From positions 36,402,205 to 36,466,204 of the forward strand of contig NC_088855.1 in the NCBI RefSeq assembly GCF_963853765.1: a stretch of 64,000 nt of DNA. The letters run 5' to 3'. Position 1 is the stretch's first letter. Every line of letters begins with the position of its first letter. Below are positions 23,701-60,000 of the stretch, piece by piece. Origin of the DNA: Magallana gigas. Taxonomy: Eukaryota. Made by a program: the position numbers and the translations under genes. The notes below the pieces were generated by a model. That model saw only the letters and a program-made list of their open reading frames with translations. It was not told where the DNA came from and made no database searches.

Positions 23701-26700
23701 AAGCTTCTATCACATTTCCTGTCTCTTCTATCCAAGCTTCTATCCCTACTTTTGGTGCTGCAATCCCTGCTGTTATCTCTACTGGATCTTTTATCTCTAC
23801 TGCTGGTTCTACTATCCAAGTTCATATCTCTACTTCTCTCCCTTCTACCCAAGCTACTATTCCTGCTTCTGGTTATACTATCACAGTTTCTAACCCTACT
23901 TCTGTCCCTTCTACCCAAGCTTCTATCCCTTCTTTTGGTGCTATTATCCTTGATTTTGGTTTTACTATCCAAGCTTCTATCCCTACTGTTGGTGCTACTA
24001 TCCCTGCTTCTGGTTATACTATCACAGCTTCTATCCCTTCTTCTGGAACTGTTATCCCTACTTTTGGTGCTACTATCCCGGCTTCTGGTTATACTATTCC
24101 AGCTTCTATCCCCACTTCTTGATCTTCTATCAAAGGTCCTATTATGACTTCTGTCTTTTCTATTCCTACTTTTGGTGCTACTTTCCCTACTTCTTGTTAT
24201 ACTATCCCAGTTTCTATCCCTTATTCTGGATCTAGTAACCCTGATTCTATCCCTACTTCTGGATCTTCTATCCAAGCTCCTATTCATGCTTTTGGTTATA
24301 ATATCCCAGCTTCTATCCCCACTTCTTGATCTTCTATCAAAGGTCCTATTATGACTTCTGTCTTTTCTATTCCTACTTTTGGTGCTACTATCCCGGCTTC
24401 TGGTTATACTATTCCAGCTTCTATCCCCACTTCTTGATCTTCTATCAAAGGTCCTATCATGACTTCTGTCTTTTCTATTCCTACTTTTGGTGCTACTTTC
24501 CCTACTTCTTGTTATACTATCCCAGTTTCTATCCCTTATTCTGGATCTAGTAACCCTGATTCTATCCCTACTTCTGGATCTTCTATCCAAGCTCCTATTC
24601 ATGCTTTTGGTTATAATATCCCAGCTTCTATCCCTACTTCTTAATCTTCTATCCAAGCTCCTATCAATGCTTCTGGTTAAAATATCCCAGCTTCTATCCC
24701 TACTTCTTGATCTTTTATCAAAGTTCCTATCATGACTTCTATCCAAGCTTCTATCCCTTCTTTTGGTGCTACTATCCTTGCTTTTAGTTTTACTATCCCA
24801 GCTTCTATCCATACTTCTGGATCTGTTATCCCTCCTTCTATCCCAGCTTTTATCCCTACTTTTGGTGCTACTATCCCTGCTTCTGGTTATACTATCCAAG
24901 CTTTTTTCTTTGCTTTTGGTGCTTCTATCCCTGCTTCTGGTTATATCATCCAAGCTTCTTTCCTTACTTTTGATGCTACTATCCTTGCTTCTGGTTATAC
25001 TATCCCAGCTTCTATCCCTACTTCTTAATCTTCTATCAAAGCTCCTATCATGACTTCTGTCTCTTCTATTACTACTTTTGGTGCTACTATCCCTGCTTCT
25101 GGATATACTACCCCAGTTTCTATCCCTTATTCTGGATCTAGTAACCCTGCTTCTATCCCTACTTCTGGATCTTCTATCCAAGCTTCTGTTCCTACTTTTG
25201 GTGCTACTATCTCTGCTTCTGGTTATACTATCCCAGCTTCTATCCATACTTCTGGATCTGTTATCCCTCCTTCTATCCCAGCTTTTATCCCTACTTTTGG
25301 TGCTACTATCCCTGCTTCTGGTTATACTATCCAAGCTTTTTTCTTTGCTTTTGGTGCTTCTATCCCTGCTTCTGGTTATATCATCCAAGCTTCTTTCCTT
25401 ACTTTTGATGCTACTATCCTTGCTTCTGGTTATACTATCCCAGCTTCTATCCCTACTTCTTGATCTTCTATCAAAGCTCCTAACATGACTTCTGTCTCTT
25501 CTATTACTACTTTTGGTGCTACTATCCCTGCTTCTGGATATACTACCCCAGTTTCTATCCCTTATTCTGGATCTAGTAACCCTGCTTCTATCCCTACTTC
25601 TGGATCTTCTATCCAAGCTTCTGTTCCTACTTTTGGTGCTACTATCTCTGCTTCTGGTTATACTATCCCAGCTTCTATCCATATTTTTGGTGCTACTTTC
25701 TTCGCTTCTATCACTATTTCTGTCTCGTCTATTCCAGCTCCTATCCCTACTTCTGTCTCTTCTATGCCAGCTCCTATCACAACTTCTGACTCCTCTTTCT
25801 TCTTGTCTACTGTTATATTTCCTGTTTCTACTCCTTCCTCTTCTCTTAAAAACTGGACTTTTACTACTTTTAAAACTTTGATCTTCACTTTGCAAATATC
25901 TATTTCTTTTTTCTGAACCCGTGCCTTCTGAATAATTAGATTTTTCTTGTTCTCCATATCTCTTAATTATATTAACACTACTCTCATTTTCCTCAATATC
26001 TCTCTCATTTTCCTCAATGTCTTCATTTTCATCAAAGCATTTGTCTATTGGTCTAGGTCTTCTCTCTAAACTACTTCCCCTGTCATCATCCACCTCAAAA
26101 TCATCATCTTCACTGTCAGATTCAACATGAATATCACCATCTGAATATTCTTCGTCTGCTTTCTGATCTATATTGCCAGTGAAACTTTGTGGTGGCACGG
26201 TTTGAGAGACTGCTTCTGTAGTGGAGAAGTATGTTTGTGATATGGTGGGATTGTATGCTGGTGAGGTGGGACTGTATGCTGGTGAGGTGGGACTGTATGC
26301 TGGTGAGGTGGGACAAAATCCTGCTGAGGTAGAACCATATGCTGGTGAAGCAGGACTGAATGCTGGTGGGGTAAAACTGTTTGTATGAATGGTAGGAGTT
26401 AAAGTAGCCCTTAAGGAATAGCCCCTTTTCTTAGAAGCACTGGAACTTTGAATTGTTGATTTTAAAATCTGATTTAATTCCATAAGAGAGGAATTTTGTA
26501 CAACTTCATCTGGCTCATTTTCCTTTTGTGTTACATCAATGTCAAACTCTACATTATCTAAGTCTGATTCATTGAGTACTGCTGTTATTGACACACCTGT
26601 GGTGTTGCCAACATCATTCAACTGTTCAGCTATTACATTTGGTCCTTCTTGCTGATCCACCAAACTTTTCTGGTATTCCTATAATATAACAGAGATAGCC

Positions 26701-44912: not shown

Positions 44913-47281
44913 TACATATTTATTCCATATAATCCCTGAGATTGTATTTCAAGATCTTGAATTACTTTAATATAGTAAATGTTGAATCCAATTACTGGTA
45001 CATAAGATTTTTTTTATTTTCATAATTTTGTTACCTTTAATGTAAACAAGATCAAAGACATAAATATCCTATGTTCGTAATAACTGACTCAACATTTTTA
45101 CAACATGTCAAGACCACTATATTTTTTCCAAAATCTTTGAAATTTCAGGATTTCATCCAGAAACATGTGTACAATATGTCTCTTTTCTATTTCTCTCCCT
45201 CGATCTCCTCTCTCTCTTATTTTCGGTGTTATAGATTATACTAGATTAACAAAATGTTTTCATAAAATTCCTCTATGTACCATATTCCTAACTCAGTGTT
45301 TCTGATCCACTCATCTTCTCACAAACCTTTGACAGATTTAGCTACTAGCAGATAAAATCTGATGATCTATTAATTATATGCATTGTTTGTAAAGCAATTA
45401 TACATGTAGTACTGTATGTCCCAAGCTATTGCTTCCATCACTTTTTTATGATTTTTGATTAAAATACAAATACCTGTGAAAGAAATACAGTTGAAATTGA
45501 TGTAAGGGAAAATATCTTCTTTGACGCATTATTCATCTACTCATAAAAGTTCACAGGAACGAAAACAAATTTCTTATGGAGGTTATTATTAATGGGAAAT
45601 ATTTACAACTTTTCATCTTCAGAACTCACTTGGAATACCTCACACTATTTTTCAACGTTATCATCTGGGCTATTTCATGCCTGATGCAATGCAAAATCCC
45701 GTAGACTTTCTATTTTGGGATGTGTATTGAAACTTGAAGCAGTAGTGGGGGCGTTTTAAAACAGATAATCTGGCCATTTTTTATATTAGTGGATGAACAT
45801 AGTTTGAGCACAAAGGTATAAATCAAAATATCAAGCGAAAAGTGGTGAAAGCAAAAACTTGGGACAGAGTATAGTAAAACAAGAGTGCGATCACCTACAT
45901 TTAATATGCTTATACATATTAACCAGCTAGATTCATAAAGACTGAAAATTTTAACTGACATTTCTTCCAGAAGAGACGCCAGTCAAAGTTTTTTAGTTTC
46001 AACAAATCTAGCTAAGATTATATTCTCTCATCTAATACCCAAAAGTTTAATTTTCTTATATATAAATCTGTCAAGAATGTGTGAAGAGACAGGCCTTTCT
46101 AGAGACACTCACTCAGTCACTCACCTTCGGAGTAAAAACATAGGATATTGTCCCTCCATGTTCTGTTATCTTTCTTCTCCAACACTGCTTTTCTTTAAAT
46201 CTTGTTAAAATATCAAACTCCAACACAAAGACAAAGTTGTGGAAAATGTTGTCTTCCATTTCCCTGTGTGTAATAACTAATAAGCATCCAAAAATTGTGC
46301 AAGATATTTAAGGTTTATGCATGCTGGTTCAGCTGTTAAGTTTTGCCGAGGCTTAACATGTGAATATTTCAGCTTGATTAGCTTGGCAAAAAGTCTCTAT
46401 TCGTAGGTCATTTTGTCCATCTACCTTGCACTGTGGCACACAACATACTGCAGTCGTATCCGTCTTTGTCTGATCAGAGCTGACTGAATATCCTATAGCT
46501 GTCAACTACTACTATAAATTTATCAATCGTTTTAATTTCTCATATCTAACAGGTTGTGACTTCTATCTTGCAAACCTACATGAAGCATAACAAATAAACT
46601 TTCATAGTGAAACGAGTAACACGTTACACCTCCTCCTTCCTTTGCTTCACTGTCTTTAGTGTTTATTTTGGTCTATGACAATATCTCATTTTGCAAACTG
46701 AAAGTTATGACGTAGAGGTCTAACATTGGGTGTCAGGAGAAAACGTACCCAAGAGAAAACGTACCCAGGAGAAAACGTACCCATTTCCTAGGGTACGTTT
46801 TCTCCAAGAGAGAATGTACCCTATGAAAATTATAAACATAATTTTTAATAGTTTTAAATACCTTTTTACTGCATAAATATGGAGGAATAGATATATAAAT
46901 TAAAGAATAGTAGCCTAATCTTTTTTCTTCTTCTTCCAATAAAGTGCAGGACTCGTTGGAGTATCATCGCACTTCGATATGTATTGGTTGAATATTTAAA
47001 GGATTTGAACATGTCAATATTAGCTTTAAATACTAATATAATGCATATTTTAATGCATGAATATGGAGGAATACTATTATATATAAATTTTATAAATAAT
47101 ATCTTTAAAATAACATAGATCCCTGACTTTTATTTGTATCGATTGAATATTGAAAAGTCTTGGACATAATTTGAGTTCAAAATTTTCGACTCTATTTTTA
47201 TAAATGATTTTTAAATAGTTGATAATTTGCCTTGTTTGTAATAAGTATTCTGCTTTAAGTATTAGTAATTCCAATGTTATA

Positions 47282-47965
47282 TCGTACTAGGATTTTGCTT
47301 AATACGATATTTCCGTTAATTTGATCCTCGGGATCTTATTCGTCCTTGACCAGACACCTGGCGTTGTCTGTGCCACGTTATATAACCCAGAATTCTCTCC
47401 TCCTCAACCTGGGGAGTAGCCCTTTCCCTGTCTGTATAAAAAGAGGAGGCAAAAGACAGCTTCCAGTTGACTACTTCTTTTATTCAAGTTTACTAATAAA
47501 ACATTCCAATCAAATTCCACAATATAATATAATGTATAATTAATAACAATAAACATTGATTACAAAAACTCTGAAAATAAGATATTATATTTACTTGAAC
47601 CTTCTGAATCATTTTTGTTAACTTTTATTAAAACCGCGCAAGTATCTTACTATGATCTTACCTGTATAAAAAGAGGAGGCAAAAGACAGCTTCCAGTTGA
47701 CTACTGGAGAGCCGCTTTCCCCGCACCTCCTTTTTATACGCACGGACACTACTTCCGATCTCCGGACCTTATAAGTAAATGAGATTAAGTGCATACTAAT
47801 GATCTGACGCACCGTGGTCAGTAGAAGCGTTTTATTTAGATTTCTGACCCGGCATCGACAGGCTCATCACTGGACTTAATAACACATTTCTCCATGAACC
47901 TAAATAAACATACGTTATCTATTTACCGCATGTCCTTTAACCAATTTCTGTATAATTTCCGTTAT
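47282..47965 (-). repeat. 3' LTR region in element orientation, organised as inverted B, then a 45-bp A-tail, a 174-bp spacer and a full A. Segment B is therefore in the opposite orientation to the 5' LTR.
   Basis: On the plus strand, A is at 47282-47480, the unique spacer at 47481-47654, a duplicated 45-bp A-tail at 47655-47700 and B at 47701-47965. The PPT lies immediately inside. Confidence 0.65.
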
Positions 47966-47972
47966 GATAAAT
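47962..47972 (-). promoter_or_regulatory. Polypurine tract (PPT) candidate.
   Basis: The minus strand reads ...gttAGTAGGGGGAA|tttatcataacgg, lying between the pol stop (48071) and the first base of the terminal repeat block B. Confidence 0.5.
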
Positions 47973-48070
47973 TCCCCCTACTAACAAAAAAAATCTTGTC
48001 CTCAAGATTCCGTGAATAGATTTTTAAAAATGATCAAGGTCAGGAAATTGAACAGTGTCCGGATGATATT

Positions 48071-51055
48071 TTAAAAACTCTGATTTGTGTAAAACAATCG
48101 TTGTCCTGAGCATTGGCCTTGGCACATGATAAATAAGGTGCCAGAAGGGTACCGTCCCACTGCGTTAATTTTGTCTAGACACTGCCTGTGCACCCGTGCA
48201 AAACAGCATTCGGTTGTTGCACACAGCTGTGTTGCTGGACAACCAAACATACACACAGCACAATGAATGTTAAACCTATCATCCGTAGGTTGATCATACC
48301 AAGATGACCTTAATTGTTCTCTCACCGATTTTTTTAATTTATTTTTTCTAAATCGCAGAGGTATATATCCATCCTCCAAAATTAAGTCGAATACGAATTG
48401 CTTAGGTAATCGATATAAATGAGAAACTTTTACCAAATAATTATTTGCAATCGGTGAAAGGCCAAAACATTCAAAATATAAAACGAGTAAGTCAAAGGTT
48501 GTTCCTTTACTGAGTGTTAACGTATATTCCTCTAATAAGGTAAAAAGTAAATCAAAACACAAAAAATCAGCGAATGTAATCAACTGTTGATAAATATATT
48601 CAGTTTCACATTCTAAGTGAACATTACAGTAATAAATAAATTTAGTTAATTTCTTTATAGTAATATTTTTGAATAAATCAAAAAGTCTTTGAATTATTAC
48701 AGGATGTGTGATTGAATCGGGGATAGATGTATGTAAATATTTATGTTTTTTTCCTGGGGTACGTTTCATGACTTTGAGTAGTACTTGGTCCCTTATCCGA
48801 AATTGTGGTACCTTTGTTTTTTTATCATATCGTTCTTTATTTACTTTTTGGACATCTTTTACATTTTGTTTTGCGAGTTCTTGAATAATTTTTACTTTAT
48901 GGACCAATTCCTTTACGTATGCATCAGGCGCTTTGTTTAATTCCTCCGTTGGCAATAACGCAACATCCAACGGCAAGGACATTTCTTTTCCAAATACCAT
49001 ATAGTATGGCGAAAACCCCGTTGATTGCGTTGAGGGACTCATTCTAAATGCCATCAAAATACTGGGCAAAATTTCATCCCATTGTGTTTGTTCTTTTTGA
49101 CAATAAGCCCGTAAAGATTGCGCAAGCGTGGAATTAATTCTTTCACAAGCTACATTACTTTGTGGGTGATAGGAACTTGTGACATGTCGTGTAACTTGAA
49201 AAATTTTACACAAGACCTGCACTATTTTTGACATAAAATTTTGTCCCCTATCACTGACTAAAGTCCTAGGAGCCCCATATCTAGTAAAAATTTCTTTGTA
49301 TAATACATTAGCAACTTCAGTAGCCTCCTGAGTTTTCATTGGCAAAGCTTCTGACCAATGCGACAAGGAATCTGTAACCACTAGAATGTATTGAAAGCCT
49401 TGTTTTGTTTTTGGTAATCCTGCCAAAATGTCCATATGCCATCTATCAAAGGTACCTTGGACTGGCAAGGGATGTAATGGTGCATTTCGAGCTGACGTAT
49501 CTCGTTTGACCCTTTGACAGATGTCACATGACGTTACATAATCGTAGATATTTTGATACATTTTAGGCCAAAAGTATTTTTGTTTTATTGCCACATATGT
49601 CCTTTGAACGCCTAAATGACAACCGCCTGCAATTGAATCATGATATGACCTTATCACATCATTTCTTAGTTTTTCCGGAACAGCCAATTGTTTTAAAATT
49701 ACTTCCGTTTTTGCCTTATTTTTAGTTCTTGGTTGGAATATATGAAACAATACATCATTTATAATTTCATACTGATTTGCTTCATACGGAATTGCTTTTG
49801 CACGATTTTTATCTGCCGGAAGAAGTCCTTGTTGTATATACTCATAAATATGCTTAAAATATGGACAATTTTGTTGTTCATTCTTAATTTGAGTTTGAAT
49901 TGATAGTACATTTATTGTGGTGTTTTGACATTCTGTTTTCTTTTCAGCCATTTTTAAAATGTCTTCAGAATTTTCATTTGCATAGATGAATGTTATTTCT
50001 GTTTTTTCTGACGGTAACAAATCATCATCTTGGGAGAACTTGTTTGTGTTTTGACACATGTCTTGATCTGGGTATGGCCTTCTTGAAAGAGCATCACAAT
50101 TTTGATGTTTTATTCCTGGTCGATGTTTAATATCAAATGTATATTCTTGCAATTTTAAAGCCCATCGAATTAATCTTGCATTTGTATGTTTTATCGTTTT
50201 TAACCAGGTAAGCGCCTTGTGGTTGGTATTAACAATGAATTTATTGTTAATTAAATAAACGCGAAAATGATCAATAGCTGATATTAATGCTAGCATTTCC
50301 TGTTCCGTAACAGAATATGATTTTTCTGTATTGCTAAGCGCTCTTCCCCCATATGCAATTACATGTTCCTTATCATCATCCCCAATTTGTGACAGAACAT
50401 AACCTATTGCCATTCCAGATGCATCGCAAGATACAATAAATTGTTTTTGAAAATCTGGATACGCCAAGATGGGAGTATTCGTTAAAGTTTGTTTTAATGA
50501 ATCAAAAGCAGTTTGACAATCTTGTGTCCATTTAAACAGCGTGTTCTTTGTCAATAATCTATTTAAAGGTAGCGCAATTTTGGAATAACCTTTGACAAAT
50601 TTCCGATAATAATTTGCAAGACCCAGAAAACTGCGAACATCATGCTGATTTTTGGGTAAAGGATAAGATTTTACCGCGTCAATTTTGGATGGATTTACTT
50701 TTATTCCGTGTTTTGATATAATATGTCCCAAATAATTGACTTCTGATCTTGCAAATGAACATTTGAGTGGTTTTAATGTCAAATTTGCGTCTCGTAATCT
50801 TTGAAAAATTAAAGAAAGATGTTTTAAATGATTTTCAAAATTATCTGACCATACAATGATGTCATCAATGTAAACCAAACAATGTTTCCACGTAAGACCT
50901 TTAAGAATCATATTCATGAGCATTTGAAACGTCGCAGGTGCATTAACTAATCCAAAAGGCATTCGTTTAAACTGATATAAATTATCATGCGTAATAAAAG
51001 CAGTTTTATGTTTTGTTCGTTCATCCAAGGCAATTTGCCAATAACCCGAAGCCAA
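48071..51055 (-). CDS. Retrotransposon pol: RT, RNase H, integrase and a C-terminal Cys-rich PHD-like finger.
   Basis: A 994-aa ORF. It contains MASGYWQIALDERTKHKTAFITHDNLYQFKRMPFGLVNAPATFQ...YIDDIIVWS (RT), then the integrase HHCC finger and DDE core. The C-terminus is ...CAVCMFGCPATQLCATTECCFARVHRQCLDKINAVGRYPSGTLFIMCQGQCSG. Confidence 0.85.
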   Translation of the reverse strand: MASGYWQIALDERTKHKTAFITHDNLYQFKRMPFGLVNAPATFQMLMNMILKGLTWKHCLVYIDDIIVWSDNFENHLKHLSLIFQRLRDANLTLKPLKCSFARSEVNYLGHIISKHGIKVNPSKIDAVKSYPLPKNQHDVRSFLGLANYYRKFVKGYSKIALPLNRLLTKNTLFKWTQDCQTAFDSLKQTLTNTPILAYPDFQKQFIVSCDASGMAIGYVLSQIGDDDKEHVIAYGGRALSNTEKSYSVTEQEMLALISAIDHFRVYLINNKFIVNTNHKALTWLKTIKHTNARLIRWALKLQEYTFDIKHRPGIKHQNCDALSRRPYPDQDMCQNTNKFSQDDDLLPSEKTEITFIYANENSEDILKMAEKKTECQNTTINVLSIQTQIKNEQQNCPYFKHIYEYIQQGLLPADKNRAKAIPYEANQYEIINDVLFHIFQPRTKNKAKTEVILKQLAVPEKLRNDVIRSYHDSIAGGCHLGVQRTYVAIKQKYFWPKMYQNIYDYVTSCDICQRVKRDTSARNAPLHPLPVQGTFDRWHMDILAGLPKTKQGFQYILVVTDSLSHWSEALPMKTQEATEVANVLYKEIFTRYGAPRTLVSDRGQNFMSKIVQVLCKIFQVTRHVTSSYHPQSNVACERINSTLAQSLRAYCQKEQTQWDEILPSILMAFRMSPSTQSTGFSPYYMVFGKEMSLPLDVALLPTEELNKAPDAYVKELVHKVKIIQELAKQNVKDVQKVNKERYDKKTKVPQFRIRDQVLLKVMKRTPGKKHKYLHTSIPDSITHPVIIQRLFDLFKNITIKKLTKFIYYCNVHLECETEYIYQQLITFADFLCFDLLFTLLEEYTLTLSKGTTFDLLVLYFECFGLSPIANNYLVKVSHLYRLPKQFVFDLILEDGYIPLRFRKNKLKKSVREQLRSSWYDQPTDDRFNIHCAVCMFGCPATQLCATTECCFARVHRQCLDKINAVGRYPSGTLFIMCQGQCSGQRLFYTNQSF

Positions 51056-51057
51056 AT

Positions 51058-52095
51058 CTAGAGTTGAAAATATCTGAGCTTTAAATTGGTTTGACCTACC
51101 GCATCGAATACATCATCTAAACGCATAGATGGAAAAGTTTGAAGTTGAGTGACCGCGTTCAATTTTCTATAATCTATTGCAAATCTATATTCATTATTTG
51201 GCTTTTTAACTAAGACAACCGGAGAAGCATACGCGGAAATGCTTTCTTCAATTATATCGTATTTCAACATTTGTTTAACTTGTTTTTCAATTTCCAACTT
51301 TGCTTTTGGCGATGTTCTATAGGGCTGCGATTGAATAGGTTTTTCCGTTTCTGTTATAATGGAATGATAATAATTGTTGCATTTACCTAATTCTGATAAA
51401 TCATTTGCAAAGACATCACTGTTTTGATTGATAAATTCTTGAAATATTTGCTTTTGCTGATCTGATAACACAGTTGATGTTAAGTCTAACGGTACATGTT
51501 TATATTTCGATTTTATAGTTGTGTTATTTTCGTCTATGGAATAAATAGCTTTTGTCCGGATCGTACTCACTGTAGCTATTATCGTGCCCGCGGTCAAGCA
51601 TACGTTCTTATTGGATGCATTGGCTACTTGTATAAACACGCGCTTCGGCCGATTAATTACAAGACACTTTGCAATTGCGAGCTGCTTTTGTATATTGCCA
51701 GTCGGTTCTAATAACACGGTATGGTTTTTCTGAGTGCGCGAGAGTTTTATTGGAATATTTGCAAATCCGTTCGGTTGTACGGTAATTGCTTTTGAGACTC
51801 TGGCCAAACCATTACTTACGTTAATTATATTAACATAAGTAGAAAACTCTTGTAAATACAATGTTTTCGTACCCCAATCAATGCATGCTTTTTGTTTTTT
51901 CATAAAATCAGTTCCCAAAATTAAAGGATGACACAAGTCTTGAATGACATAAAATATTTGCCTAAATTTAAGACCTCCTATTTTTATTTCCAATTCGATT
52001 TTCCCATTTACTGTATGTGTCGTTCCCCCAGCACCGGTGATAAACGAAATTTCAGAATTTTTAAGTTTATTTTCATGAATTTTGATTTTGTTCAA
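51058..52095 (-). CDS. Retrotransposon pol, N-terminal part: aspartic protease plus the beginning of RT.
   Basis: It contains ...ISFITGAGGTTHTVNGKIELE...ILGTDFMKKQKACIDW, which is protease-like. It ends YRKLNAVTQLQTFPSMRLDDVFDAVGQTNLKLRYFQL*, which is RT finger/palm. The stop falls inside the RT domain. Confidence 0.75.
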   Translation of the reverse strand: MNKIKIHENKLKNSEISFITGAGGTTHTVNGKIELEIKIGGLKFRQIFYVIQDLCHPLILGTDFMKKQKACIDWGTKTLYLQEFSTYVNIINVSNGLARVSKAITVQPNGFANIPIKLSRTQKNHTVLLEPTGNIQKQLAIAKCLVINRPKRVFIQVANASNKNVCLTAGTIIATVSTIRTKAIYSIDENNTTIKSKYKHVPLDLTSTVLSDQQKQIFQEFINQNSDVFANDLSELGKCNNYYHSIITETEKPIQSQPYRTSPKAKLEIEKQVKQMLKYDIIEESISAYASPVVLVKKPNNEYRFAIDYRKLNAVTQLQTFPSMRLDDVFDAVGQTNLKLRYFQL

Positions 52096-52446
52096 AGTGT
52101 CGGAATTAATGGCTGAAATTGTTGATCCTGTATCTAAAAGAGCATTAAACCGAGTGGTATGTACATATACAGGAATAGAACATTTTTCTTTAAAAGAAAT
52201 TAAAACATCAACAGAATCTGTCTCTTGCCCATCTCCAAATTTGTTTTGATTGAAATTTCGATTTTTCTTTTGTTTTAAATTAGAATTTTGTGTTGATTTG
52301 AAATTGTGAATTTGATTTTTCTTTAAATTTAAGTGTTGATCGTTAAAATTTTGAAAATGGTTTTGTTGCCAACGTAATTGTTTTTTCTGATGATAATTTT
52401 GAACAGTGGATCTGGGAATGAACGTTTTGGAGATAGGCGCGATTTC

Positions 52447-53844
52447 CTATTGTTGTACAACATATGACTGTCTACACGCCCTTGAAAAATGGCCCACTCT
52501 GTTACAAGTATGACAGAGAGCATTTCGTGCGGGGCATCTGGATCTATCCATGCACATGCCTAGACAAAAATAACATTGCGGAGCGATCATGCGGGGGTGT
52601 TGGGTTGACTGCTGCTGTGTATTAGGTCTTATATTGACACCGGGCAACGCGTATCTGACCGTTCTTGATCTATTTAGCCTGATAGTTTGCCGTCTTGGCC
52701 GATAAATAGGTGCCTGCTGTGGCGGCGAATGAAATCTAACCCTTTGCTGAAAAACAGGTGGTTGTTGCGTTACAAATTGTGGGGAATAATCTTGAGTTTG
52801 CGGCATAACACGGTTAATTTCATTAACTTCTGTCTTTGTCTCAATTTTTTCTTTTAAGTTCTTAATCTCCGACAACAAATTTTCATACGTCTCTAACGTT
52901 GTAATTTGACTTGGTTGAGATTTTTCCGCCAAAATTGCAATTTGCCTTAACTGTTCCATTGTTTTGGGGTTCTGGGTAACAACGTATGTTTTAATATCAG
53001 ATCTTAAACCATTCATTGCAACTGAAAGTAAAACTTTTTCTGGAATATTTTTAATAGAAGCTAAACTGACCAGTCTGGACAAAAATTCTCCCACAGGTTC
53101 TGTCCCCTTTTGCTTCATTTGAAGTACCGACAAATCCAAAAAGTTTTCTAATTCTTTAAACCTTTCTTGAAACAAGTTTGTAAGTGTCGCAGGATTTACT
53201 TTTTGTTCAGGTGACAAAGAATCATACCAAATTTTTGCATGCCCCTCTAAATAAAACGGAAAAGCATCAATAATTTTAGAATCAGGCAAATCATGAAATT
53301 TTGCCCATTGCCCAAAATTTGTAAACCATGCATTTACGTCCTGAGAGCCATCTCCTTTAAATTTGTCTAATTTAATGTTAGAAGACATTCTAAAGGTAGA
53401 GAAAAATGAGTTTCTACCTGCTGTCTGTGAGTTGGCAGCCGTATTTTCTGGTATTACAAATTCCTGGCTGGTTCGAGGTAGGTTCTGCGGTGGGTTGCTT
53501 GTCTTGGAGGCCTGGGATGCGTTCGGGGCGTTGTGCGCGTCCGAAGGGTCCGGGGCGTTGAATCCGTCCTTGACGTTATGTGCGCTCGGAAGGTTTTGGG
53601 CGTTGTGTGTGTCCGAAAGGTCCGGGGCGTTGGATTCGTTGTTGACGTTGTTTGCGTTCGGAGTGTTATATTCGTCCGTAGCGTTGTGTGCGTCCGACGG
53701 GTCCGGGACTCTGCTGATTTCGTGTCTATCGAAGGACGGAAATGTAGTCCTTCCGAAGGAAGCCGCCTGGGATGAAGATGCCTCGTGTGGATTTAGTACC
53801 ACAGATGGATAGTTGAAATTTAAATCATCATTAGAATAAAACAA
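52447..53844 (-). CDS. Retrotransposon gag (capsid plus CCHC zinc knuckle).
   Basis: A 465-aa ORF. Its N-terminal third is low-complexity, with repeated APDxSDxHNAxN units. The C-terminus is ...CYFCLGMCMDRSRCPARNALCHTCNRVGHFSRAC. It is in the same frame as the protease ORF, separated by a stop codon. Confidence 0.8.
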   Translation of the reverse strand: MFYSNDDLNFNYPSVVLNPHEASSSQAASFGRTTFPSFDRHEISRVPDPSDAHNATDEYNTPNANNVNNESNAPDLSDTHNAQNLPSAHNVKDGFNAPDPSDAHNAPNASQASKTSNPPQNLPRTSQEFVIPENTAANSQTAGRNSFFSTFRMSSNIKLDKFKGDGSQDVNAWFTNFGQWAKFHDLPDSKIIDAFPFYLEGHAKIWYDSLSPEQKVNPATLTNLFQERFKELENFLDLSVLQMKQKGTEPVGEFLSRLVSLASIKNIPEKVLLSVAMNGLRSDIKTYVVTQNPKTMEQLRQIAILAEKSQPSQITTLETYENLLSEIKNLKEKIETKTEVNEINRVMPQTQDYSPQFVTQQPPVFQQRVRFHSPPQQAPIYRPRRQTIRLNRSRTVRYALPGVNIRPNTQQQSTQHPRMIAPQCYFCLGMCMDRSRCPARNALCHTCNRVGHFSRACRQSYVVQQ

Positions 53845-54039
53845 AGGCGGGGAAGTTTGCGAAATGTTTTTATAGTTCTTGTTCGATCCTGATGCAAAAT
53901 CTGGTCTCGATTCTGATACGAAATCTGGTCTATATGTGTTAGCGTTAAATTCAATGTCTGAATCTTCAAAATCAGGCTGAATAAATTTCGAGCCAGATGT
54001 TCTCTAACTGGAAGAATTGACGTTACCGTGGCTTGGACG

Positions 54040-54057
54040 AAGACCGGATTTCCACCA
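54040..54057 (-). promoter_or_regulatory. Primer-binding site (PBS) candidate of the LTR element.
   Basis: On the minus strand, the sequence directly after the inverted-A terminus (...cctagtacgatata) is TGGTGGAAATCCGGTCTT. It begins with the canonical TGG that pairs with a tRNA 3' CCA. The donor tRNA was not identified. Confidence 0.5.
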
Positions 54058-54709
54058 CTATATCGTACTAGGATTTTGCTTAATACGATATTTCCGTTAA
54101 TTTGATCCTCGGGATCTTATTCGTCCTTGACCAGACACCTGGCGTTGTCTGTGCCACGTTATATAACCCAGAATTCTCTCCTCCTCAACCTGGGGAGTAG
54201 CCCTTTCCCTGTCTGTATAAAAAGAGGAGGCAAAAGACAGCTTGGAATTTATCATAACGGAAATTATACAGAAATTGGTTAAAGGACATGCGGTAAATAG
54301 ATAACGTATGTTTATTTAGGTTCATGGAGAAATGTGTTATTAAGTCCAGTGATGAGCCTGTCGATGCCGGGTCAGAAATCTAAATAAAACGCTTCTACTG
54401 ACCACGGTGCGTCAGATCATTAGTATGCACTTAATCGCATTTACTTATAAGGTCCGGAGATCGGAAGTAGTGTCCGTGCGTATAAAAAGGAGGTGCGGGG
54501 AAAGCAGCTCTCCAGTAGTCAACTGGAAGCTGTCTTTTGCCTCCTCTTTTTATACAGACAGGGAAAGGGCTACTCCCCAGGTTGAGGAGGAGAGAATTCT
54601 GGGTTATATAACGTGGCACAGACAACGCCAGGTGTCTGGTCAAGGACGAATAAGATCCCGAGGATCAAATTAACGGAAATATCGTATTAAGCAAAATCCT
54701 AGTACGATA
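54058..54709 (-). repeat. 5' LTR region in element orientation, organised as A (185 bp), then B (287 bp), then inverted A (186 bp). It abuts the PBS.
   Basis: On the plus strand, 54058-54243 is a direct copy of 47282-47466. 54244-54530 is the reverse complement of 47701-47965. 54531-54709 is the reverse complement of 47282-47480. Both A and B carry a TATAAAAAG(A)GGAGG promoter-like motif. Confidence 0.7.
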
Positions 54710-54805
54710 GTTATATTAGACCTTTGAAACTTTCAAAGTTTGGTCTATTCTAGGGATATTTTAGCAATGAAAGGAAAAACTATTCAAATAGATACATGTA
54801 ACTTA

Positions 54806-54810
<5 letters not shown>

Positions 54811-54890
<80 letters not shown>
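54811..54890. repeat. (TA)n microsatellite of about 40 units, just outside the retrotransposon.
   Basis: Visible directly. The overlapping minus-strand ORFs 54784-54996 and 54809-55003 (IYIYIY...) are translation artefacts. Confidence 0.95.
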
Positions 54891-54894
<4 letters not shown>

Positions 54895-55927
54895 AAAAAA
54901 ACAACGCGCCATCGACTTTTTGAGATAATAGCGAGCGCAGCGAGCTCCATAGACAACGTGTACGAACGGAGGAAATTCGAGTTGAAATCTGCACATTGTT
55001 CAAAGAAATTTTTATGAGGCCACGTGAAAAAGTTCTACATATCCCAATAATCCTTTGCGGTGCATAGCAACATGGTGGAACAGGAAGCGTTTCTAAGGAA
55101 AATTCTTACCTCTTAATCGTATACATCTATTTCAGTTATAACAACAAAAATCTTTTAAAAACACTGAAGTAAACAACATATATGCTTACGTTAAAAACTG
55201 TACCTATCTGAACTTTTGCTGACATATGACGTCATTTCCTTTCCCGAATTTTTCCGACAATTTACGAGAACTGTCGAGCGCAAAAGAAGTTAAGTTTAGA
55301 GGTGGATCAAGCATATATGTACTGTACGGTGTAACGTGTAGTAAGTACTCAGTATCAGTATTAATGGTAACTGTTCGGCTGATTAGTTTTGTTATCATAT
55401 TTTTTGGCTAAGTAAACACACATGCAAGTTCCATACTTAATTTACAGTCATATTGATTCAATTGTAATATTCATGCGTGAGGTAGGTGACAAAAAATTAT
55501 TTAAAAAATGTCTACAACGCATATATAGCATACAAAAATTAAGAAAATTAAAAACGAATTGATGATACAGAGGAAAATAACAACAAGGAACAAAATGGGA
55601 AATAACACACTCAGACAAGCAGTTTATTAATTACTGATTTTAATGATCATTATTAAAAAGTTAAGGAATGATAAAACATGATTGTCCTTTTATAAAAAAA
55701 AAATCAAACGTCTTTGATTCGACATATTTTAATAAGTCTGTTTTACATTAAATCTATGCTCAGTGGTAGTTTGTTTAAGTGTATGATGGACAATTGGGAT
55801 AAATATTTGATAACTTCGGGTTCCTTGCGGTGATAAAAGTTTTCGAGACAAAGCCAAAGTTTTTAGGTTGGGGCAAGTCCATGGGTTAACGTTGCATTTA
55901 ACAATGATGAGAGATGTTTGGTTCCTT

Positions 55928-55979
55928 CTGCGCTCGCCCCAACGGTCACACCGTAAAACATATTAATACCGAGCGCAGG
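55928..55979. repeat. Dispersed hairpin-containing repeat, of the form ctgcgctcg, about a 30-nt loop, then cgagcgcag. This is copy 1 of at least four related copies or fragments.
   Basis: Other copies are at 56681-56800 (the hairpin plus a tail, cgagctctaccggcaaggcgtgtgtgaa...aaattcggact...tgcacatt), at 58214-58256, and at 54896-55000 (the half-hairpin plus the tail, cgagctccatagacaacgtgtacgaa...aaattcgagtt...tgcacatt). Two of the copies adjoin the (TA)n tracts. Confidence 0.5.
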
Positions 55980-55993
55980 ATTAATGGTAACAC

Positions 55994-55994
<1 letters not shown>

Positions 55995-56056
<62 letters not shown>
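55995..56056. repeat. (TA)n microsatellite of about 31 units.
   Basis: Visible directly. It is preceded by one copy of the hairpin repeat. Confidence 0.95.
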
Positions 56057-56058
<2 letters not shown>

Positions 56059-56921
56059 AAAATCAGTGAAAAATGAAAGTTGAATCAGGGGTACTAAGGC
56101 CAAACAAATTTTCTTCCAGCCCTGGGCGCCGCCATATTGAAAGCCATTTTGTTTTCAAAAAGTTAGTTCGATCACTGATTGACTGGTACTTATCGATGTT
56201 TATTGCAGCTAAACTCAATTAAGATTTTCCAATGTTTCAATAGAAGGTAATTTGAATTAAAAGAAATAAAAGAGGACACCAGATAAGTTTCAATAGTGCG
56301 TCAATCAAGAAACACGACTAGTTCTATGTATGTCTTATCGAATTATCAGATGGAAAATAAAAACATTAACATCAAGGAACTGATCTTTTAGATACTGAAT
56401 AAAGTATTCAATTTTATTATCGCGGCATTTATATGAATTAAATTGATAAACAATATGAAAGAAGAAATAAAAAAAAGTTCGGAATAAAGTCACTCTTCGG
56501 CTATTTCCGAAGACAAAACGTGTACGTTTTACGTCTGTAACATGACGTCATAATGTAGACTGAGCACGCGACGTTTGGTTTAACTTTGGCTGATGATTTG
56601 AGTAGGCAACCAGGCGGATCCTACTGTGTGCGTTTCAAATGAATTTTTTTCAACAAAATTCAATCTGCAGTGTGTTAAATCTGCGCTCGGTCAAACGGTC
56701 ACACCGTTTATATATTAGCGAGCGCAGCTCGCCGGCGCGAAGCGAGCTCTACCGGCAAGGCGTGTGTGAATAGAAAATTCGGACTATTTGCACATTCATT
56801 CAACGGATTTTTTTGGTGTCAGTAAATCGGACCAGTAATGCCTTGTTTTAATCGTCCCAGTAGTTCCCTGTAATTATGGTTTCCCATTTCACACTCTCAC
56901 GAGAACAAGATAAAAGACTAT

Positions 56922-57060
56922 GCATGCGCGGATCCAGAAATTTTTTCCAGGGGGGGGGGGTCCGAAGGATAATTGTGTTTGCCAGGGGGGGTCCGAGGCA
57001 TATTTTCGCGATAATTTTACTATGTATATTTAATAAATTTTCATTTTCCAGGGGGGGTCG

Positions 57061-57096
<36 letters not shown>

Positions 57097-57097
57097 T
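56922..57097. repeat. Structured element consisting of 17-bp inverted arms around three G-rich ccagggggggtccga-type units and a nested G/C palindrome.
   Basis: The arms are gcatgcgcggatccaga ... tctagatccgcgcatgc. G7-G11 runs lie at about 56950, 56985 and 57050. The nested palindrome is gggggggtcgggacccccccgacccccc. Confidence 0.6.
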
Positions 57098-60000
57098 ATG
57101 TACATGCATTGTAAATATACTGCCGACACAACGCAAATTCCATTACATAAGACTAACAGAGTTATCGTCCTTTCGAGTGACGTCACAATGGATTTCTTAC
57201 ACATTGATCCGACAGAATTTTTCGGAGTCAGTAAATTTCGACCCACAATGCAATTCCTCAATGTCGGACGATCTCACTAGACTGGATACCATCTCGCGAG
57301 AATCAAAGTAAAACTTTTGAGAAACAGATAAATTATGTAATTTCAAGGACATAATGCTTTTAAATAAACAAAACAGTATATTTCGCGGAGTTATTTTTTT
57401 TAAAGGATGTTTTCAGAGAGACAGACGACACTTGACCGACGTGAACTTTGACGTCACAATAAGGGGAAATTACTCTAAGTAGTTATTGTAAAACTGCTAA
57501 AATATAAATACCAAAATCTTTTCAAAATCTTGCAGAGCTAACGAATAGGGACATTTCTTCAAAGATAGGAAACAACTATAACTTGCTCTCATTTGGATGA
57601 ATGCTCACATTTATTTTATTCACTATATTTACGGTTATTTCCAGGAATGTTTTTTTAAAAGGGTGCGTGGCAACATCATTCTAAAATTCTTCGCAAGCAA
57701 AAAGAAAAAAATTCTCAAAATCAGGAAAATTCTAATCCGGATGAAGAATTGGGAGTGCGTAGTATGCCTTTAGCTCTTTAGCTGCTCAATACTCAAACAA
57801 TAGTATCTTTATTTTCACTTCCATTTATTACATGCTCCCGGGGGATCCATTTTCATTATATGATCAGCAAGTTTTTTTTATACGTGAATTTGATTTTTTT
57901 TTTAAACGGGGGAGGGGGGGGGACTCTGTGATAAGTCAATTTTTCATGTAAGTTTAAGAAAAATGTCTGCTGCAAGAAAAGAGGAAATAAACTGTAATGT
58001 ACATTATGTTAAAATCTTTATTATTCAACAACATTTAAATTTATCCAAGATAAATTCTATATATAAATAGATAACAAAATCTTATGAATTATGAATGATG
58101 AAAATTTACTGGAAAAAATAGGCATGCTTATTTTATTCTGCATTCAAATTCATTTACTTTACGTCGCTACTTTTATTTTTATTGTTTTATCATAATTGAT
58201 TATTTAACACATGCTGCGCTCGCCCCAACGGTCGCACCGTAATACATATTAATTATGTTCTCCAAATTATATCAGTTGCAATCAAAACTATTACGTCGAT
58301 AAATTATTTTGGGGGTCAACCGGAAGTGTGACATCGTCTGCTAGTCTATATATAGCCCATAACATGTAGTTTAACATTGGCAACAAAAAGACGAGTGCTC
58401 CGCTGTCATTGTTAGAAAGAAATTCGATTGTTGAGTAGCATAGAGCGGGTATCTCGGCAAGGGGTCACAGATCGCTAAGCAAACAGGACACACACTATCA
58501 ACTGTGTAAGGAGTTTTGAGACGTTTGAAAGACCGAAGAAGTGTTAGAAAACCAAAGTCGAGTGAGTTGAACTGTCGTAAAAGCAATCAGAAGGCACTCC
58601 CTATCATGATATACTGTATGTGCAACATTTAATGAGTTTAGACCTCATACTGTGTCAAAACGAACAAACCAGAAAAAAAAATATACGAAGAGAGGTTCCA
58701 CAAGTGTGTTGTGCAAAAATTTAGAGATACCGACGCACTAACGTTTAATGTTATAAATAAATACTCACTTACTTGTTTGAAATATTAAAAAAGTTTATTT
58801 TTTTTCTAGCCAAATGCAATTAATAGAATTAAAGCCAAGTACATGTTTTTACCATCCATTTCAGTTTAGATTTTTCAACTTTGCCCGCTTCTCTAAATGT
58901 CTTGGCTGCGTTTTACAAAAGAACTTACGATTTACGACCAAATGAACGGATGCTTATTGATAACAAACTAATCAGTGTTTCAATTTAGTGCCATTCAAAT
59001 AGGCTATAATAATAAAAATCAAAATATTTGTGATTTAACGGTTTTAAAAAAAATTGTATAGGAAAGATCAATCTATGAGACAAAAGATATATATACGACT
59101 TTGTCGTAAGTTCTTTTGTAAAACGCAGTCTAGCAATGCAGTTTTCACTTGTTTTTAATTTTAGGTAAAGAAAGCAGTTTAGAAAAATTTCGGACACAGT
59201 ATATATAAAAAATAAACAATATATATATGGTTCAACTATTAAGCATTGTATGATATTAATGCGGTGTACAGTGTTAAATATTCCCGTGCATCTAATAAGA
59301 ATTTAAACAAAAACTAACCAGCCAAGAAATCGCAGTTAACATCAAAATACCGAGTACTTGTTACACGTAACCATACTGAACTGAGACACCATCACACCTT
59401 AGGCCTCCAATGGTCCCAGGATTTAATTCCTAAAACCCCTTTCTAAAATTTCCACAGGATGCCAATCTTGGTAATTCGCAACCTATAGGCCATCATGATG
59501 CACCACTGGGGACCGAAAGAGTTGGTTGTGGGGGCAGGGTATCGTCTTAACAAGGAAAAGACAATTCTTTTGAGAGGTATGCCACCGCAATTTTTGACGG
59601 ACAAAGAAGAAACTTAAGGCTTATTTGAAACGACATGATGCAAAAACTGTGTAGTCTGTGTTCAAAGTACATGTACTACCAGGCTCAATTTGGCTGTTAA
59701 AACCATACAAGAGATCCCAGTTGTTTACCATGTTGGTTCACAACAACGATGTTCAATAGGATGTAGAGTTGGGGGAAGATTCAGTCAATCAACAGGCAGT
59801 CAATTTGCTTTTTGGATGTTGCTTATGAAATCGAACATTAAAGTCATTAAAGTCAGATTTATGTTACAAGTTGACATACTGGTGTAATACGACTGTAAAT
59901 GATATGAATTTAAACGTTTAAACAAAGAAGCAAGTTAAGATTCAGTATGTTTTGTTTTCTTTTACTGTTATATATAAAATATCGTTAGATTAAATAAAAT

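What the first reader, a model, noticed from the sequence alone, without database searches (positions are those of the whole stretch)
47282..54709. LTR retrotransposon whose terminal repeats are built from 185-bp inverted arms and whose core segment is inverted between the two ends
All the hallmarks of a gypsy-type element are present: gag with a CCHC knuckle, protease, RT, RNase H, a DDE integrase, a TGG-initiated PBS abutting one repeat, and a PPT abutting the other.

The repeats, however, are not simple direct LTRs. On the plus strand the left end is A, a 174-bp spacer, a 45-bp A-tail and B. The right end is A, inverted B and inverted A. The outermost 470 bp are thus terminal inverted repeats (A+B versus its reverse complement). 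The innermost A copies are direct repeats. B has opposite orientation at the two ends, and each B is flanked by A arms in inverted orientation. That geometry is what flip-flop recombination between inverted repeats would generate.

The whole 7.4-kb unit is bounded by a perfect 6-bp direct repeat, GTTATA, which is consistent with a target-site duplication and so with integration as a single unit. The copies are more than 99% identical, which implies a recent insertion. The left repeat also carries a 45-bp direct duplication bracketing a unique 174-bp insert. Both A and B contain a TATAAAAAG(A)GGAGG promoter-like box, so A and B may themselves derive from an internal duplication.

The closest known analog with inverted termini plus an internal complementary segment is the DIRS-like elements, but those encode tyrosine recombinases rather than a DDE integrase.
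Basis: seen in the sequence. Interest (0 to 1): 0.7.

Follow-up and report, generated by a model that had tools for sequence, protein, structure and literature searches.

The report
Oyster gypsy retrotransposon, botched 5' end
This is one defective copy of an ordinary oyster Ty3/gypsy retrotransposon whose 5' repeat was replaced by a backwards copy of its 3' repeat, most likely through a copying error before insertion, and it is not a new kind of element.

Summary
The repeat geometry is real. The element is a Ty3/gypsy retrotransposon on the minus strand, ordered gag, PR, RT, RNase H, IN. Its closest relatives are in Crassostrea; gag is 97% identical to C. angulata and C. gigas proteins.

The odd ends belong to this copy, not to the family. 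Two other copies (L003, L004), a short-LTR copy (L005), a related family (L001) and a Mytilus relative (L002) all have ordinary direct LTRs.

In the window the 3' LTR is normal (690 bp). The 5' LTR is reduced to its last 183 bp and is preceded by an inverted 460-bp LTR. That inverted LTR still carries 6 nt of polypurine-tract complement, so it was copied from a PPT+3'LTR end. This rules out a solo-LTR insertion and argues against flip-flop.

A 4-bp duplication, GTTA, flanks the composite. The family makes 4-bp duplications, and the chance of such a match is about 0.006. I infer an aberrant cDNA with two U5 ends, made by snap-back template switching and then integrated. The copy also carries private lesions in gag and RT. 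Interest is low to moderate.

The parts
47276..47279 (.). Left copy of the 4-bp target-site duplication, GTTA
   Evidence: The sequence is. It matches 54710-54713. The family's duplication length is 4 bp (L003: CACT). The chance of a match from base composition is about 0.006.
47280..47969 (-). Normal 3' LTR, long form, 690 bp. In sense order it runs b (U3-like, 47969->47706), 44-mer copy 1 (47705->47662), spacer s (47661->47476), 44-mer copy 2 (47475->47432), and the rest of a down to 47280. The termini are TATCATAACGG...GTACGATA.
   Evidence: It is collinear with the 5' LTRs of L003 and L004 and with the 3' LTR of L003. Segment identities are about 98% for b, 99-100% for s and 95-96% for a.
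47970..47985 (-). Polypurine tract. In sense it reads GTTAGTAGGGGGAATT, immediately 5' of the 3' LTR.
   Evidence: It is conserved in the related family L001 (GTTAGTGGGGGGAATT|TATCATAACGG).
48071..51055 (-). pol ORF: C-terminal part of RT, then RNase H, H2C2 zinc finger and rve (DDE) integrase
   Evidence: Pfam hits RVT_1, RT_RNaseH, Integrase_H2C2 and rve. It is 98-99% identical in DNA to L004.
51081..51085 (-). Private 5-bp insertion (sense CAAACCAA[TTTAA]AGCTC) that shifts the frame inside RT
   Evidence: The alignment to L004 and L001 shows both intact at this site.
51058..52095 (-). pol ORF: aspartic protease and N-terminal part of RT
   Evidence: Weak Pfam hits to Asp_protease and gag-asp_proteas. 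The RT motifs continue in the next frame.
52447..53844 (-). gag (capsid domain plus CCHC knuckle), lacking its normal N-terminus
   Evidence: Pfam Retrotrans_gag and zf-CCHC. It is 97% identical to the C. angulata and C. gigas proteins in cluster P0121.
54001..54002 (-). Site of a private 66-bp leader deletion that removes the gag ATG (MAKLTPF...). The deletion is bounded by an AAC microhomology.
   Evidence: Alignment with L003, L004, L005 and L006.
54038..54057 (-). Primer-binding site. In sense it reads TGGTGGAAATCCGGTCTTCG, 3 nt after the LTR end.
   Evidence: It is identical in L003-L006. The tRNA partner was not identified; no tRNA gene lies in the window.
54061..54243 (-). Remnant of the 5' LTR: only the last 183 nt ('a', U5-like), starting at position 14 of the 44-mer
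   Evidence: It is 100% identical to 47280-47462 and to the reverse complement of 54527-54709.
54244..54249 (+). GGAATT, the last 6 nt of the PPT. It is carried along with the inverted LTR and defines the novel junction 54243|54244 (GACAGCTT|GGAATTTATCAT).
   Evidence: Canonical copies show that U3 starts at TATCAT, so these 6 nt are internal sequence.
54250..54709 (+). Complete LTR in inverted orientation relative to the element. It is the short form (b-44mer-a, 460 bp, no spacer), with its U5 terminus facing outward.
   Evidence: It has 2 mismatches to the 3' LTR, one private to each copy. The short LTR form also exists in normal orientation in L005.
54710..54713 (.). Right copy of the 4-bp target-site duplication, GTTA

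Best explanation
This is a single, dead-on-arrival copy of an ordinary oyster Ty3/gypsy family, and its 5' end was mis-built before integration.

In sense orientation the copy reads: [inverted short LTR][6 nt of PPT complement][last 183 nt of the 5' LTR]-PBS-gag-pol-PPT-[normal long LTR]. Both outer termini are therefore U5 termini (...GTACGATA). The integrase joined them to one target and made the family-typical 4-bp duplication.

The explicit route I favour is inferred, not shown:
1. A minus-strand DNA made the first jump early through the 44-bp repeat, which gives the short LTR.
2. It copied U3 and 6 nt of the PPT.
3. It then snapped back onto its own 5' U5 segment and ran off through the tRNA primer. 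This produced U5'-U3'-PPT'(6)-U5-PBS.
4. That product behaves like a plus-strand strong-stop DNA. It transferred to the PBS complement of a second, normal minus strand, and synthesis was completed.

The result has no sense-oriented U3 promoter, no gag start codon and a frameshifted RT, so it cannot propagate on its own.
For: Shown:
- Five other copies or relatives have ordinary direct LTRs.
- The inverted LTR is complete to its natural U5 terminus and retains exactly the 6 nt (GGAATT) that precede U3 in the PPT. It was therefore copied from a PPT+3'LTR end.
- The composite is flanked by GTTA on both sides. L003 shows that the family makes 4-bp duplications (CACT). The chance of a match is about 0.006.
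- The three 'a' copies are 100% identical, whereas other copies differ from them by 3-5%. This points to one common origin.
- The inverted LTR is the short form and the 3' LTR is the long form, as expected if two different minus strands contributed.
- The copy carries two further private lesions of the kind RT template slippage can produce: a 66-bp deletion with AAC microhomology and a 5-bp insertion.
- A second locus of the same family (L005/L006, two independent sequencing runs) ends in an inverted U3 terminus. It is joined to gag through a TCTA microhomology, the same 'copy back to your own 5' end' signature.

Precedent:
- Composite LTR retrotransposons flanked by target-site duplications have been attributed to template switching (PMC1950507; 10.1101/452573).
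- RT can extend a folded-back minus-strand strong-stop DNA (PMC6088434).
- Integrated HIV-1 proviruses with inversions and asymmetric LTRs exist (PMC9278108).
Against: - Only one assembly of this locus is available. No empty site and no independent reads could be retrieved.
- The novel junction has no microhomology, so the switch point is unexplained.
- The U3/R/U5 borders are inferred from a TATA box and an AATAAA, not from mapped transcripts.
- The two LTR copies differ at 2 of 460 positions, so either some time has passed or copying errors occurred.
- The private lesions could have been inherited from a defective source copy rather than made in the same event.
- The 4-bp match could still be coincidence (about 0.6%).
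Confidence: 0.72

Rival explanations
1. Two independent, head-to-head insertions of the same family were followed by a genomic deletion. The deletion ran from the 5' LTR of the minus-strand element to 6 nt before the 3' LTR of a neighbouring plus-strand element.
For: - This needs only ordinary insertions and one deletion.
- The deletion end points (position 14 of the 44-mer and PPT-6) have no obvious functional meaning and no microhomology.
- The short and long LTR forms would simply come from two different source copies.
Against: - The outer flanks would then belong to two different integration events, so the exact 4-bp match adjacent to both termini would be chance (about 0.006).
- The three 'a' segments are identical, whereas other copies differ from them by 3-5%.
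Confidence: 0.13
2. Assembly or read artefact: a chimeric join of two copies, or a fold-back read.
For: There is a single assembly and no read support available to me. Inverted repeats are classic trouble spots.
Against: - The junction has no shared sequence on which an overlap assembler could mis-join.
- The sequence after the junction is not the reverse complement of what precedes it, so it is not a simple fold-back chimera.
- The flanks carry a matching 4-bp duplication.
- A structurally similar inverted LTR end at another locus is seen in two independent runs.
Confidence: 0.06
3. One reading: an element type whose terminal repeats are built from inverted arms, with the B core flipping between the arms by recombination (DIRS-like logic with a DDE integrase).
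For: - Perfect 183-bp inverted arms flank a 283-bp core at the 5' end, so inversion of that core is physically possible after integration.
- The current state and its flipped isomer share the same single novel junction.
Against: - Canonical copies have no outer A arm at all and have B in one orientation.
- The 3' LTR has no flanking inverted arms.
- The PPT remnant shows that the core plus outer arm is a copied 3' end.
- There is no tyrosine recombinase.
- This copy is coding-defective.
Confidence: 0.04
4. A solo LTR, or a second element later reduced to a solo LTR, inserted in reverse orientation into the 5' LTR.
For: Nested insertions are common in genomes rich in transposable elements, and the inverted segment is one complete LTR.
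Against: - An integrated LTR does not bring PPT nucleotides with it, yet GGAATT is present.
- There is no 4-bp duplication around the inverted LTR itself.
- The upstream 507 bp of the host 5' LTR (b, 44-mer, s and 13 nt) is missing, and genomic flank follows directly.
Confidence: 0.02

Closest known systems
Ty3/gypsy (Metaviridae) LTR retrotransposons of bivalves
   Same: - gag with capsid domain and CCHC knuckle.
- Domain order PR-RT-RNase H-IN.
- H2C2 zinc finger plus DDE integrase.
- PBS starting with TGG, a PPT, and a 4-bp target-site duplication.
- Other copies have ordinary direct LTRs of about 460 or 690 bp.
- pol is 63% identical to a Mytilus edulis protein and 45-50% to many other bivalve proteins.
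   Different: In this particular copy the 5' LTR is cut down to 183 bp and fused to an inverted LTR.
Complex LTR retrotransposon insertions created by aberrant template switching before integration (Sabot & Schulman 2007, PMC1950507; Zeng & Sun 2018, bioRxiv 10.1101/452573)
   Same: - A composite structure bounded by one target-site duplication.
- Near-identical outer LTRs.
- Origin inferred in a single round of reverse transcription.
   Different: Those cases are LTR-internal-LTR-internal-LTR arrays in direct orientation. Here the extra LTR is inverted, there is one internal region, and both termini are U5 ends.
Defective integrated retroviral proviruses with inversions or asymmetric LTRs (HIV-1, PMC9278108), and self-primed minus-strand strong-stop DNA (PMC6088434)
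   Same: - Replication-defective products of error-prone reverse transcription can still be integrated.
- RT can copy a DNA strand of its own polarity after fold-back.
   Different: - Those are exogenous retroviruses.
- The self-primed products described are dead ends in vitro.
- I found no described case with a complete inverted LTR plus PPT remnant acting as the integration end.
DIRS-like retrotransposons
   Same: Only the superficial presence of inverted terminal repeats.
   Different: - DIRS elements encode a tyrosine recombinase, have an internal complementary region and make no target-site duplication.
- This element has a DDE integrase, no such region and a 4-bp duplication.
- The inverted ends are not shared by its relatives.

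Membership tests
Ty3/gypsy LTR retrotransposon | pol domain order PR-RT-RNase H-integrase (integrase after RT), with a DDE (rve) integrase | tested here: met
   Pfam on the 994-aa ORF: RVT_1 residues 2-113, RT_RNaseH 201-305, Integrase_H2C2 459-518, rve 537-631. The protease lies in the upstream ORF.
Ty3/gypsy LTR retrotransposon | gag with a retrotransposon capsid domain and CCHC zinc knuckle | tested here: met
   Retrotrans_gag E=1.5e-8 (above the curated cutoff). zf-CCHC 17.9 bits (just below the 20.8 cutoff), with the motif visible in the translation.
Ty3/gypsy LTR retrotransposon | Direct long terminal repeats at both ends (family level) | tested here: met
   L003 has both LTRs direct. 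L004 and L005 have direct 5' LTRs. L001 is a circularly permuted contig consistent with direct LTRs. L002 has direct repeats of about 750 bp and no inverted repeats.
Ty3/gypsy LTR retrotransposon | Direct long terminal repeats at both ends (this copy) | tested here: not met
   Only the last 183 bp are repeated directly. The rest of the 5' LTR is replaced by an inverted LTR. I read this as a defect of the copy, not of the family.
Ty3/gypsy LTR retrotransposon | PBS next to the 5' LTR and PPT next to the 3' LTR | tested here: met
   TGGTGGAAATCCGGTCTTCG lies 3 nt after the LTR end. GTAGGGGGAATT abuts U3. Both are conserved in other copies. The priming tRNA was not identified.
Ty3/gypsy LTR retrotransposon | Short target-site duplication (4-6 bp) | tested here: met
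   GTTA on both sides here and CACT in L003.
DIRS-like retrotransposon | Tyrosine recombinase instead of DDE integrase | tested here: not met
   No recombinase family hit in any of the three ORFs at E<=0.01. An rve integrase is present.
DIRS-like retrotransposon | Inverted terminal repeats plus an internal complementary region as a family trait, and no target-site duplication | tested here: not met
   No internal segment is complementary to the termini. Relatives have direct LTRs. A 4-bp duplication is present.
Complex LTR retrotransposon insertion made by template switching | Composite bounded by one target-site duplication, with outer LTRs nearly identical | tested here: met
   GTTA on both sides. 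The outer LTRs differ at 2 of 460 aligned positions plus one 230-bp indel.
Complex LTR retrotransposon insertion made by template switching | Three direct LTRs separated by two internal regions | tested here: not met
   There is one internal region, and the extra LTR is inverted and abuts a 183-bp LTR remnant.
Invertible (flip-flop) DNA segment | Segment bounded by inverted repeats | tested here: met
   183-bp arms, 100% complementary, with 283 bp between them.
Invertible (flip-flop) DNA segment | Both orientations observed among molecules or copies | not testable with these tools
   There is only one assembly of this locus. Other copies lack the outer arm and show one orientation.

The most novel reading that the evidence does not exclude
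In this oyster family, reverse transcription recurrently snaps back onto the 5' end of the strand being made. This yields cDNAs with two identical ends (U5/U5 here, apparently U3/U3 at the L005/L006 locus) that the integrase still inserts. The resulting perfect 183-bp inverted repeat, together with an outward-facing LTR promoter, could produce hairpin RNA that seeds small-RNA silencing of the whole family, as inverted transposon duplicates do in plants.
Probability: 0.12. Interest if true: 0.55.

Novelty: new member of a known kind. Interest (0 to 1): 0.27.

Why it matters
Mainly as a caution. A striking 'new architecture' seen in one copy disappears once other copies of the family are examined.

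It has some value for specialists. The copy is a naturally integrated retroelement with two U5 ends, a retained PPT remnant and a target-site duplication. That is a fairly clean fossil of a specific reverse-transcription error. A second copy in the same family has an inverted U3 end. If the junction were confirmed in reads, it would show that such snap-back products can be integrated in vivo in a mollusc.

It does not open a new class of mobile element.

Tried and rejected
- **Junction and LTR ORF look-ups.** Exact-sequence look-ups found nothing on record for two short ORFs spanning the novel junction, for this copy's own gag ORF, or for the 88-aa ORF carrying the private substitution of the inverted LTR. 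The locus could not be confirmed in another data set.
- **Collection scans.** Exact scans of the metagenome and prokaryote-genome collections for an LTR 25-mer and for the U5/PBS junction gave 0 hits.
- **Orthologous locus through a neighbouring gene.** The large RS-rich ORF at 22569-26663 has only a 66%-identical C. gigas protein with no contig attached. No orthologous locus or empty site could be fetched.
- **Paralogous empty site.** A search among the window and the fetched loci found none.
- **Solo-LTR nesting.** Rejected on the PPT remnant and the missing upstream LTR part.
- **Simple fold-back read artefact.** Rejected because the sequence after the junction is not the reverse complement of the sequence before it.
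- **Tf1-style self-priming of the PBS.** Considered briefly by eye only. I saw no obvious complementarity between the start of 'a' and the PBS, but this was not formally tested.
- **tRNA partner of the PBS.** Not identified; no tRNA gene lies in the window.
Full report
**1. The observation**

- On the plus strand the left end is A (47280-47475), a 186-bp spacer 's' (47476-47661), a second copy of the last 44 nt of A (47662-47705), and B (47706-47975).
- The right end is a direct copy of the first 183 nt of A (54061-54243, 100% identical). It is followed by 54244-54709, which is the reverse complement of A+B without the spacer (466 nt, two mismatches).
- The three 183-nt copies are identical to each other.
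- BLAST E-values are 1e-94 to 1e-163, so chance is not an issue.

All long ORFs lie on the minus strand. Pfam finds a retrotransposon gag capsid domain with a CCHC knuckle, an aspartic protease, RT, RNase H, an H2C2 zinc finger and an rve integrase, in the Ty3/gypsy order.

**2. Orientation and host**

Because the genes are on the minus strand, the window's right end is the element's 5' end. In sense orientation, lower case denotes the sense reading of a segment. The copy then reads:

[A B]-AATTCC-[a]-PBS-gag-pol-PPT-[b 44 s 44 a]

The pol protein is 63% identical to a Mytilus edulis protein and 45-50% identical to many other bivalve proteins. The gag protein is 97% identical to proteins annotated in Crassostrea angulata and C. 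gigas. The window is therefore oyster DNA or something very close to it.

**3. Other copies**

I fetched the following loci.
- Two C. angulata loci carrying this gag (L003, L004).
- Two short-read contigs from independent runs (L005, L006).
- A contig of a related family (L001, 80-92% DNA identity).
- The Mytilus relative (L002).

Mapping the window's parts onto them gave these results.
- The 5' LTRs of L003 and L004 read b-44-s-44-a in sense orientation, directly followed by the same PBS and leader.
- The 3' LTR of L003 has the same order and orientation.
- L005 has a 5' LTR reading b-44-a, a short form without the spacer, also in sense orientation.
- L001 is a circularly permuted contig consistent with direct short LTRs.
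- L002 has direct repeats of about 750 bp and no inverted repeats.

The family therefore has ordinary direct LTRs. The '45-bp duplication around a 174-bp insert' is its standard long LTR.

**4. True LTR ends and duplication length**

- The flanks of L003 and L004 show that the LTR begins at TATCATAACGG and ends at ...CCTAGTACGATA.
- L003 is flanked by CACT on both sides, a 4-bp target-site duplication.
- The six bases GGAATT before TATCAT are therefore the end of the polypurine tract (GTTAGTAGGGGGAATT) and not LTR. They are conserved in L001.

Applied to the window:
- The 3' LTR is 47280-47969 (690 bp).
- The inverted LTR is 54250-54709 (460 bp).
- The duplication is GTTA at 47276-47279 and 54710-54713.

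From the window's base composition, the chance of a 4-bp match at a fixed position is about 0.006.

**5. The key junction**

On the plus strand, 54243|54244 reads GACAGCTT|GGAATT-TATCATAACGG.
- The left side is the 183-nt remnant of the 5' LTR. It stops at position 14 of the 44-mer.
- The right side is a complete LTR preceded by six nucleotides of PPT.

The inverted segment was therefore copied from the junction between the internal region and a 3' LTR. An independently integrated solo LTR could not bring PPT bases with it. It would also be flanked by its own 4-bp duplication and by the remaining 507 bp of the interrupted 5' LTR, and none of these is present. There is no microhomology at the junction.

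**6. Other features of this copy**

- Compared with L003-L006, it has lost 66 bp of leader, including the gag start codon. The deletion is bounded by an AAC repeat.
- Compared with L004 and L001, it has a 5-bp insertion in the RT domain that shifts the frame.
- The inverted LTR is the short form while the 3' LTR is the long form.
- Each of the two carries one private substitution relative to the C. angulata copies.
- The 'a' segment differs by 3-5% from other copies but is identical among the three copies here.

**7. Interpretation**

The matching 4-bp duplication, of the length the family makes, argues that the whole composite entered the genome in one integration. The rearrangement must then have arisen in the cDNA. 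Both outer termini of the composite are U5 termini. From general knowledge, retroviral integrases act on short terminal sequences and can pair two U5 ends in vitro.

The explicit route below accounts for every feature. It is inference.
- *Step 1.* One minus strand makes the first transfer early through the 44-bp repeat. This gives a short LTR.
- *Step 2.* It copies U3 and six bases of PPT.
- *Step 3.* It then snaps back onto its own 5' U5 segment and copies it, and the tRNA primer, to the end. The product is U5'-U3'-PPT'(6)-U5-PBS.
- *Step 4.* That product carries a 3' PBS and can take the place of plus-strand strong-stop DNA on a second, normal minus strand, which carries the long LTR.
- *Step 5.* Completion of both strands gives exactly the observed molecule.

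Two motif positions bear on the switch point.
- A TATA box in b lies 33 nt before the first 44-mer.
- An AATAAA at the end of s lies 16 nt before position 14 of the second 44-mer.

The 183-nt segment may therefore correspond to U5 of the long LTR, but no transcript data were available to test this.

**8. Precedent**

- Composite LTR retrotransposons bounded by a single duplication have been attributed to template switching or recombination before integration (PMC1950507; bioRxiv 10.1101/452573).
- RT extension of folded-back minus-strand strong-stop DNA is documented in vitro (PMC6088434).
- Integrated HIV-1 proviruses with inversions and asymmetric LTRs are documented in vivo (PMC9278108).
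- Two full-text searches for inverted LTRs in retrotransposons returned mainly DIRS papers and no case like this one.

**9. A second example in the family**

L005 and L006 come from two independent sequencing runs and share the same flank, so they represent one locus. There, gag is cut at nucleotide 1284 and joined through a TCTA microhomology to about 52 nt of the start of U3 in inverted orientation. The U3 terminus faces outward and is followed by unrelated DNA. This is the same signature, in which a growing strand copies back to a 5' terminus, but on the other strand. It suggests the error recurs in this family.

**10. Rivals**

- *Two head-to-head insertions plus a deletion.* This would give the same sequence but makes the 4-bp match a coincidence. 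I give it about 0.13.
- *Assembly artefact.* This is unlikely. There is nothing for an overlap to mis-join on, and the structure is not a simple fold-back. I could not examine reads, so I give it about 0.06.
- *Flip-flop of the core between the 183-bp arms.* This is physically possible after integration and cannot be excluded from one assembly. It does not explain the origin of the outer arm or the PPT remnant, and it is not a family trait (about 0.04).
- *Solo-LTR nesting.* The junction sequences contradict it.

**11. What could not be done**

No independent copy of this locus, no empty site and no population data could be retrieved.

**12. Verdict**

The element is an ordinary bivalve Ty3/gypsy retrotransposon. 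The unusual ends are a one-off defect of a non-functional copy, best explained by an aberrant reverse-transcription product integrated through two U5 ends. Novelty is low and interest is modest.

Noticed in passing
L005:1740-1830 and L006:1541-1630: Another locus of the same family, seen in two independent sequencing runs with the same flank. gag is truncated at nt 1284 and joined via TCTA microhomology to about 52 nt of the U3 start in inverted orientation. The U3 terminus faces outward and is followed by unrelated DNA.
   Followed up: partly
window 47432-47705 (and L003:9522-9783, L004:9511-9784): The family LTR exists in a long form (44-bp direct duplication around a 186-bp AT-rich segment ending in AATAAA) and a short form without it (L005, the inverted LTR here, and the related family L001). 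A 44-bp duplication is too long for a target-site duplication, so the origin of the 186-bp segment is unexplained.
   Followed up: partly
window 47726-47738 / 47665-47679 and 54481-54493 / 54540-54554: Each LTR holds a pair of TATA-like boxes in inverted orientation (TATAAAAAGGAGG ... CCTCCTCTTTTTATA), separated by 46 bp (about 60 bp start to start), around the presumed U3/R border. The downstream box is conserved in L001. This may be a bidirectional promoter or a hairpin.
   Followed up: no
L003:10001-16982: A deletion derivative has gag nt 1237 fused to position 70 of the 3' LTR, plus two insertions. It is annotated as a cellular gene in C. angulata and C. gigas (LOC128168126 / LOC117684841; shorter isoforms are named 'histidine-rich protein PFHRP-III'). 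The same gag-LTR fusion peptide recurs in several short-read contigs (P0147, P0152).
   Followed up: partly
window 53521-53700: The gag N-terminal region contains degenerate 36/72-bp tandem repeats encoding NAPDPSDAHNA-like units. This is the source of the spurious Plasmodium histidine-rich-protein Pfam hit and of the annotation above.
   Followed up: no
window 22569-26663 (minus strand): A 1364-codon open frame ends in a stop. It has RNA-polymerase-II-CTD-like YSPTSPA heptads followed by a very long, internally repeated Arg/Ser/Asp-rich region, with strong strand composition skew. The best named relative is only 66% identical (C. gigas 'serine/threonine-protein kinase fray2-like'). It is probably the last exon of a minus-strand gene whose upstream exons may lie at 42.8-44.9 kb.
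   Followed up: partly
window 54803-54898 and 55989-56056: Two long (TA)n microsatellites lie just right of the insertion. Similar tracts occur in L003.
   Followed up: no
window 54935-58227: The right flank is itself repetitive. 54935-55196 and 56049-58227 match L003:5945-8543 at 89-96% identity, so it is an unrelated repeat family present next to both insertions in different arrangements.
   Followed up: no
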